This document shows positions 20,411-20,470 of a DNA stretch of 64,000 nucleotides, piece by piece (within the stretch, counting starts at the first letter, position 1; each line of letters begins with the position of its first letter). The translations under genes and the position numbers were made by a program. Location: positions 2,546 to 66,545 of the forward strand of contig CAXHJY010000811.1 of the NCBI GenBank assembly GCA_964016885.1, given 5' to 3'. The DNA is from Eledone cirrhosa (lineage: Eukaryota). The notes beneath the pieces were generated by a model. The model saw only the letters and a program-made list of their open reading frames with translations. It had not been told where the DNA came from and did no database searches.

Positions 20411-20470
20411 TTTCATTCTGAGGATTGAAAGCAAAACCTTTTGCTTTTAAGAAACCACTGGTAAATGGAA
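20411..20470 (+). ncRNA. Intact type I hammerhead ribozyme in a PLE-type terminus (family H2, element ~20405-20570)
   Basis: Stem I TTTCATT/AATGGAA; CTGAGGA; stem II TTGAAAGCAAA/TTTGCTTTTAA with loop ACCT; GAAA; stem III ACC/GGT with loop ACT; GUA cleavage after 20463. Confidence 0.85.

What the first reader, a model, noticed from the sequence alone, without database searches (positions are those of the whole stretch)
20411..20470. Fully intact hammerhead with an unusual U-A stem II closing pair and 3-bp stem III
All three helices pair (7, 11 and 3 bp) and all core nucleotides are present, predicting cleavage after GUA at 20463. The pair closing stem II is U-A rather than the usual G-C. If transcribed on the + strand, for example within an intron, it could cut the host transcript.
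Basis: partly seen in the sequence, partly recalled or inferred. Interest (0 to 1): 0.75.

Follow-up and report, generated by a model that had tools for sequence, protein, structure and literature searches.

The report
Hydra-clade Penelope retrotransposon hammerhead fragment
This is one of thousands of near-identical copies of a likely self-cutting RNA motif at the end of a known kind of jumping gene; its odd-looking pairing is close to normal for that group, and it most likely serves the jumping gene rather than a host gene.

Summary
The hammerhead is real as described: stems of 7, 11 and 3 bp, full core, U-A closing stem II, predicted cut after A20463; 0 of 200 shuffles give it. It is not a lone intronic ribozyme. 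It lies in a 234-bp, 5'-truncated end fragment (20340-20573, then (TA)n) of a young Hydra-clade Penelope-like retrotransposon: 1,473 exact copies of the 51-nt motif, intact 710-aa ORFs elsewhere with a telomerase-like RT fold. The 'unusual' traits are clade-typical: in the published Hydra table 18 of 25 families lack G-C at this pair (14 U-U, none U-A) and 19 of 25 have the same 9-nt palindromic stem III, suited to dimer or protein-assisted cutting. One useful extra: this lineage duplicated its hammerhead; the inner twin is disabled in 27 of 27 elements while the terminal copy (this motif) stays intact in 23 of 27, and copies run 40 or 110 nt past the cut. That points to selection on the motif in active elements. 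Cleavage, expression and a host gene are not shown. The scan reported other Hydra-clade hammerheads in this genome before, on other DNA.

The parts
20340..20573 (+). 5'-truncated 3' end (pseudo-LTR fragment) of a Hydra-clade Penelope-like retrotransposon; solo copy, no ORF and no second family hammerhead in the window
   Evidence: 97-100% identity to 41 listed genomic matches; 2 mismatches to the 3' pLTR of full-length element L031; homology starts at 20340 in the fetched loci; window scans
20411..20470 (+). type I hammerhead ribozyme motif (terminal copy, 'B')
   Evidence: 1,473 exact 51-nt copies
20418..20424 (+). core C3-A9 (CUGAGGA); N7 = 20422 varies in the family
20425..20450 (+). stem II, 11 bp, closed by U10.1(20425)-A11.1(20450); relatives show C-A and U-U at this pair
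20454..20462 (+). stem III: 3 bp + 3-nt loop as a monomer; 4+1+4 palindrome that would give an 8-bp helix in a double hammerhead
   Evidence: invariant in 33 of 33 terminal copies
20463..20464 (+). predicted cleavage site, after GUA
   Evidence: hammerhead consensus; not tested
20498..20573 (+). PLE 'tail': stretch between the family's two fixed 3' ends (about +40 and +110 nt from the cut); likely lies between two reverse-transcription start sites; holds a 7-bp hairpin at 20509-20529
   Evidence: loose ends at the matching place in contigs; interpretation from PMC11167929
20570..20586 (.). (TA)n microsatellite, the insertion target
   Evidence: all 69 termini listed run into TA-type microsatellite; Hydra preference in PMC8557442

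Best explanation
The motif is the terminal hammerhead of a young Hydra-clade Penelope-like retrotransposon family, left here in a solo truncated insertion, and in full-length elements it likely cuts the element's own read-through RNA slowly, helped by a second copy or by the element's protein. Shown: family membership, copy number, element layout (pLTR with hammerhead - ORF - 3' UTR - hammerhead - tail), conservation pattern, and that DNA copies read through the cut site. Inferred: (1) the element protein nicks (TA)n DNA and starts reverse transcription about 40 or 110 nt downstream of the cut site, so the template is uncut or re-ligated RNA; (2) the palindromic stem III lets the 5' and 3' pLTR copies of one precursor pair as a double hammerhead and release a unit-length RNA; (3) the U-A closing pair is a tolerated variant of the clade's U-U and probably keeps the rate low; (4) the window copy stopped after 234 nt, has no partner or ORF, and is probably inert.
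For: Full-length elements carry this motif 227 nt upstream of the start codon and again at the 3' end; 9 of 30 protein-selected loci hold an open 714-715-codon frame. The ORF has RWK, DKT, YRDDG, CxCx5C, YVGMT, CxxC..E and N..CxH, the Hydra signature; its model (pLDDT 86.9) matches telomerase RTs best (E 4.5e-08). Among 33 terminal copies, lineage-shared changes hit 0 of 18 core and stem III sites, 5 of 6 free sites (N7, loops; Fisher p 0.00014) and 16 of 43 upstream sites (p 0.0015); all 3 shared stem I changes and 1 of 2 stem II changes keep pairing. A duplicated inner twin in one clade (100/100 support) is intact in 0 of 27 elements against 23 of 27 for the terminal copy. Modelled double hammerhead is 9 kcal/mol below two active monomers at all 6 boundaries tried and is, or is within 0.2 kcal/mol of, the best dimer fold at 3 of 6. 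Ends: 19 short, 16 long, 16 read-through, 2 dropped of 53; only 1 of the 22 copies with a changed base after GUA ends at the cut. Precedent: PLE hammerheads inactive as monomers and weak as dimers; anole PLE hammerhead cuts only with its protein and RT uses uncut RNA.
Against: No cleavage or expression data. No two-sided compensatory change in 17 aligned copies, and the covariation score does not beat shuffles (269 of 500 as high). The 25 nt downstream of the motif are about as conserved as the core (2 of 25 sites, p 0.5), so part of the conservation may serve protein binding rather than catalysis. With native flanks the active monomer is rare in the model (P 0.002 for 81 nt, 0.0002 for 234 nt) and the double hammerhead loses to other dimer folds by 1.1, 1.8 and 14.4 kcal/mol at the 3 wider boundaries and in a second family copy. 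The 27 twin elements share ancestry: about 6 shared damaging events against 0 (my reading of the tree; p 0.016). Pfam and PDB sequence searches do not recognise the ORF.
Confidence: 0.8

Rival explanations
1. The motif is kept as a fold or sequence that the element's protein binds near the reverse-transcription start sites, and cutting is negligible in vivo.
For: Copies never need the cut: they end 40 or 110 nt beyond it. In the anole element hammerhead mutants insert normally in vitro and no RNA-seq reads end at the cut. The downstream 25 nt are as conserved as the core.
Against: The invariant positions are exactly the catalytic ones while N7 and the loops drift; H17 is never G in 27 of 27 terminal copies but G in 25 of 27 inner twins.
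Confidence: 0.12
2. The inner twin is a helper: its core cuts the terminal copy's GUA in a one-way double hammerhead, and its own GUG protects it.
For: Early twins keep a full core and the palindrome and have lost only the cleavable base; an early twin paired with the terminal copy folds into the arrangement that would cut the terminal site. 333 exact matches to the GUG pattern.
Against: In the youngest clade (18 elements, 100/98 support; 342 pattern matches) the twin loses the palindrome; two elements with intact ORFs share a core A6U change; the late twin does not fold that way; 8 older elements have no twin.
Confidence: 0.05
3. This copy sits in a host intron or UTR and cuts the host transcript as a monomer.
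For: A 3-bp stem III supports monomer cutting in ASBVd(-); once stems I and II are forced, stem III forms in the model; among thousands of dispersed copies some will be transcribed in sense.
Against: No host exon found: 0 of 57 tested ORFs of 60 aa or more hit Pfam, the window is mostly microsatellite and repeats on a 66.5-kb scaffold. The copy is 99% identical to its family, so it shows no sign of host selection. Active monomer P about 0.0002 in its 234-nt context. Short exons would escape this test.
Confidence: 0.03

Closest known systems
Hydra clade of C-terminal EN+ Penelope-like elements, e.g. Hydra-1_Obim (Craig et al. 2021, PMC8557442; abstract, passages, section 11 and supplement parts 1, 2, 52, 53 of 59 read)
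   Same: RT then GIY-YIG-type endonuclease in one ORF, RWK/DKT/CxCx5C motifs, (TA)n target, one canonical hammerhead near the 3' end, 9-nt palindromic stem III (19 of 25 families; Hydra-1_Obim has ACCA-A-UGGU against ACCA-C-UGGU here), non-G-C closing pair (18 of 25), H17 = A (11 of 25). Counts are my reading of their File S2. The Hydra-1_Obim ORF start resembles this ORF by eye; no alignment was run.
   Different: U-A at 10.1-11.1 is in 0 of 25 listed families; stem II of 11 bp is longer than any listed (3-8 bp); a microsatellite-filled 3' UTR of 1.4-2.7 kb makes the unit about 4 kb against 'generally <3 kb'; the young lineage has a second, disabled hammerhead; thousands of young copies with clear pLTRs, whereas Hydra-1_Obim is noted as having no pLTR.
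Minimal and short-helix-III PLE hammerheads (Cervera and de la Pena 2014, PMC4209133; parts 1-2 of 4 read)
   Same: Type I, in pLTRs, long helix II, palindromic helix III, mostly dispersed solo copies from truncated elements, opposite-strand pairs 100-700 bp apart, proposed dimer action and low in vitro activity.
   Different: That paper reports a highly conserved G10.1-C11.1 pair and an extra base after A9; this motif has neither, and has a 3-bp helix III and a 7-bp helix I.
Poseidon element PAc of Anolis carolinensis (Frangieh et al. 2024, PMC11167929; abstract, passages and part 2 of the main text read)
   Same: Two fixed ends downstream of the hammerhead bounding a 'tail', AT-rich target, copies that read through the cut site.
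   Different: Other PLE clade; there the ORF starts inside the hammerhead, here 227 nt after the cut; tail here about 70 nt. Protein-assisted cutting is shown there and untested here.
Natural hammerheads with weak stem II closure (Perreault et al. 2011, PMC3088659, section 8 and passages read; axolotl HHR_Amex2, PMC7229834, passages read)
   Same: U10.1 with a non-canonical partner (U-U) occurs in nature and supports cleavage (22% in 1 h as a monomer for Amex2, more as a dimer).
   Different: U-U, not U-A. Searches for a U10.1-A11.1 report returned only Perreault et al.; older mutagenesis papers are outside this library.

Membership tests
Type I hammerhead ribozyme | Core C3 U4 G5 A6 N7 G8 A9, G12 A13 A14, A15.1-U16.1, H17 | tested here: met
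   consensus as stated in PMC3088659
Type I hammerhead ribozyme | Three helices, pairs next to the core intact, stem I open | tested here: met
   7/11/3 bp; pairing kept by one-sided changes
Type I hammerhead ribozyme | G10.1-C11.1 closing pair (common, not required) | tested here: not met
   U-A in 99 of 100 listed copies; Perreault et al. accept any pair here
Type I hammerhead ribozyme | Match to an Rfam hammerhead model at gathering score | tested here: not met
   0 hits in the window
Type I hammerhead ribozyme | Compensatory covariation | tested here: inconclusive
   0 two-sided changes in 17 closely related copies
Type I hammerhead ribozyme | Self-cleavage 3' of H17; loop I-loop II tertiary contact | not testable with these tools
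   needs in vitro assay
Hydra-clade PLE | Single ORF, telomerase-like RT followed by C-terminal GIY-YIG-type endonuclease | tested here: met
   710-aa ORF; fold matches telomerase RTs; endonuclease assigned by motifs only, no Pfam hit
Hydra-clade PLE | RWK, DKT (not DKG), CxCX5C linker, CxxC and CxH beside conserved E and N | tested here: met
   against the definition
Hydra-clade PLE | Insertion into (TA)n; pLTR, tandem and inverted copies; tail | tested here: met
Hydra-clade PLE | Canonical hammerhead near the 3' end | tested here: met
Hydra-clade PLE | Length generally under 3 kb | tested here: not met
   ORF 2.1 kb plus 1.4-2.7 kb to the terminal hammerhead in most elements; a tendency in the paper, not a criterion
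Hydra-clade PLE | Placement with published Hydra proteins in an RT tree | not tested
   published sequences were read but not aligned
Non-LTR retrozyme | Non-coding tandem array with a hammerhead in every unit | tested here: not met
   solo copy in the window; family has an ORF
Naiad PLE | N-terminal endonuclease, DKA, no canonical hammerhead | tested here: not met
   endonuclease motifs are C-terminal, DKT, hammerhead present

The most novel reading that the evidence does not exclude
This lineage is a natural knock-out experiment showing that PLE hammerheads cut in vivo: when the motif was duplicated into the 3' UTR, the inner twin had to be silenced (GUA to GUG, or broken stems) because cutting there would sever the ORF from the reverse-transcription start sites, while the terminal U-A-closed copy stayed catalytic and gated by dimer or protein.
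Probability: 0.25. Interest if true: 0.55.

Novelty: new member of a known kind. Interest (0 to 1): 0.3.

Why it matters
The role of hammerheads in Penelope-like elements is an open question (stated in PMC8557442; dispensable in vitro for the anole element). This family offers a clean test set: young elements with intact ORFs, an invariant terminal hammerhead, a decaying twin in the same transcripts, and natural variants at the closing pair (U-A, U-U, C-A, against engineered G-C). The window copy itself is an ordinary truncated insertion and matters little.

Tried and rejected
Rfam: no match. Naiad assignment, first suspected: rejected on domain order and motifs. Retrozyme array: no tandem unit in the window. 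U-A as a decay mutation of a G-C pair: rejected; no G-C form in 37 elements on the tree or in 100 listed copies. An alternative register giving G-C or an extra base after A9: none in the sequence. Helper-twin model: weakened by decay in the youngest clade. Ligation or template-jump scars at the cut: none seen; 22 copies have a changed base after GUA against 5,521 matches to the wider pattern, 20 of them plain substitutions, 1 with an extra base, 1 ending in (TA)n. Expression: no RNA holder listed; four runs of unrecorded kind, kept as contigs, hold the family and show the short 3' end but cannot show strand, ends or level. Covariation test uninformative at this depth. Pfam and PDB sequence searches blank for the ORF. 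Host exons: none found. Earlier scan notes by sequence and by place held nothing on this family. Papers fetched that added nothing: PMC2238771, PMC2837043 (passages), preprint 10.64898/2026.07.22.740005 (part 1 of 5; its supplements are closed and might list related families).

Full report
Observation. In 200 shuffles of the window the descriptor gave 0 hits at 7/11/3 or 5/4/3 bp and 0.05 per window at 4/2/2. Rfam gave no hit. The stem III region is a 4+1+4 palindrome.

Context. A search of the 3.0-Gb own genome with 20345-20570 gave 705 candidates; all 41 listed matches are 97-100% identical. The 51-nt motif occurs 1,473 times exactly and a 22-nt stem II/III pattern 5,521 times (91 of the 100 listed have GUA, 9 GUG). 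In the window homology runs from 20340 to about 20573 and then into (TA)n; relatives extend further 5'. Locus L031 shows the whole layout: motif, 5' UTR, ORF, long microsatellite-rich 3' UTR, motif. The window copy differs from its 3' repeat at 2 positions. It is therefore a 5'-truncated solo end of a mobile element. The window has no ORF of this family close by (one weak 34-aa tblastn hit at 393-494) and no second family hammerhead.

The element. A protein search found 88 matches among 86 scored candidates, many with open frames of about 714 codons; 9 of the 30 fetched hold one. The 710-aa protein has RWK, DKT, YRDDG, CxCx5C, YVGMT, CxxC..E and N..CxH, which is the definition of the Hydra clade of Penelope-like elements (PMC8557442 section 11). 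It has at least 1,575 relatives at E 1e-30 or better among 7,998 scored candidates, 41-58% identical in the 120 listed. Pfam and PDB sequence searches are blank, but the predicted fold (pLDDT 86.9) matches telomerase RTs first (E 4.5e-08). The nearest described family is Hydra-1_Obim from an octopus; its ORF start and stem III resemble these by eye, which suggests an octopod host (inference).

Is the U-A pair unusual? It is a family trait, not decay: 99 of the 100 listed among 1,587 matches with both positions left free are U-A. Older subfamilies show C-A (L095, L097, L100) and U-U (L098, one copy) there and never G-C. In File S2 of PMC8557442 (my tally, 25 Hydra families, one duplicate row merged) the pair is U-U in 14, G-C in 7, G-U in 2, U-C in 1, A-U after an extra G in 1, U-A in 0; 19 have the same 9-nt palindromic stem III and 11 cut after A. 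Other hammerhead families in the fetched loci also close with A-U, G-U or C-A. So U-A is not in that table but is one substitution from the clade's commonest state. U-U at this place is known to allow cleavage. GUA is a natural, somewhat slower triplet.

Signs of selection. A tree of 37 ORFs is ladder-like. Eight older elements have one hammerhead; a clade of 29 (100/100) has a second one 240-500 nt after the stop codon. In the 27 elements where both were captured, the inner twin meets all five criteria (core, H17, palindrome, stem II of 10 bp or more, stem I of 7 bp) in 0, the terminal copy in 23; H17 is G in 25 twins and in 0 terminal copies. These elements share ancestry: I count about 6 shared damaging events in the twin (A17G, a broken stem II pair, loss of the palindrome in 18 elements, a broken outer stem I pair, core A6U, the L093/L105 changes) and 0 in the terminal copy (p 0.016). 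Among 33 terminal copies (2 near-duplicates dropped of 35), shared variants fall on 0 of 18 core and stem III sites, 5 of 6 free sites, 16 of 43 upstream sites and 2 of 25 downstream sites; 4 of the 5 shared stem variants keep pairing and the fifth is the closing pair itself. Against: no two-sided covariation, the upstream alignment is AT-rich and may inflate its count, and the conserved downstream flank allows a protein-binding explanation.

How it likely works. Family copies end at two fixed places, about 40 and 110 nt past the cut, and run into microsatellite: 19 short, 16 long, 16 reading on into the ORF, 2 dropped, of 53 matches in protein-selected loci (69 termini in all, biased to the long end). 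Only 1 of 22 copies with a changed base after GUA stops at the cut. In the anole element such ends are the two RT start sites, the hammerhead cuts only with the element protein, and uncut RNA is the main template (PMC11167929). By analogy the template here is uncut or re-ligated RNA (inferred). Folding models put the active monomer 0.5-2.4 kcal/mol above the best fold for 60-81 nt but at P 0.0002 in the 234-nt fragment; a double hammerhead is 9 kcal/mol better than two active monomers and is the best or near-best dimer fold at 3 of 6 boundaries, worse at the 3 wider ones. These models ignore core and tertiary contacts. PLE hammerheads tested before were inactive alone and weak as dimers, whereas a 3-bp stem III suffices for ASBVd(-). 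My odds: PLE hammerhead 0.95; cuts in vitro in some format 0.75; efficient as a lone monomer in native flanks 0.2; effect on a host gene at this locus 0.03.

Host gene. The window covers nearly all of a 66.5-kb scaffold, is largely microsatellite and repeats, and 0 of 57 chosen ORFs of 60 aa or more match Pfam. Short exons could be missed.

Verdict. New family of a known kind: a Hydra-clade PLE hammerhead, with a closing pair not listed before in the sources searched but close to the clade norm. The scan noted other Hydra-clade hammerheads and a tail hairpin in this genome earlier. The decaying twin is the one feature worth a specialist's time. Interest 0.3.

Noticed in passing
window 7664-7729, - strand (repeat 7508-7803): A second hammerhead of a different repeat family: core CUGAAGA, A-U closing pair, interrupted long stem II, AU-only palindromic stem III; variants occur in L013, L025, L052, L066, L074, L081, L104.
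   Followed up: partly
window 20509-20534: 7-bp hairpin followed by GAGCACUC in the tail; the same GAGCAC motif recurs before the start codon in full elements (L031 about 3805) and, by eye, after the hammerhead in several published Hydra consensus sequences. Candidate protein-binding or RT start signal.
   Followed up: partly
L093:4004 (-), L105:5406 (+): Inner twin with GUA instead of GUG but broken stems I and III, nested inside the GUG clade: reversion or recombination between element lineages.
   Followed up: no
L075, L076: Sister lineage with a single hammerhead only 245 nt after the ORF, the position of the later twin; a short-UTR form may have supplied the duplicate. The two loci are a segmental duplicate.
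   Followed up: partly
L031:5960-7300 and other full elements: The 1.4-2.7-kb 3' UTR is largely (TA)n/(TG)n microsatellite carried as part of the element, so this family spreads microsatellite and its own target sequence.
   Followed up: no
L046, L047, L075 (several places): Further hammerhead families with long stem II, C-A or A-U closing pairs and 8-10-nt palindromic stem III, in both orientations.
   Followed up: no
L113: Fold-back copy: the 3' half of the motif is joined to its own reverse complement at the stem II loop.
   Followed up: no
window 20590-20929, 26814-27175, 61068-61290, 61546-61854: Copies of an abundant SINE-like repeat, one directly 3' of the (TA)n that ends the element; 'SINE-like' is my label and was not tested.
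   Followed up: no
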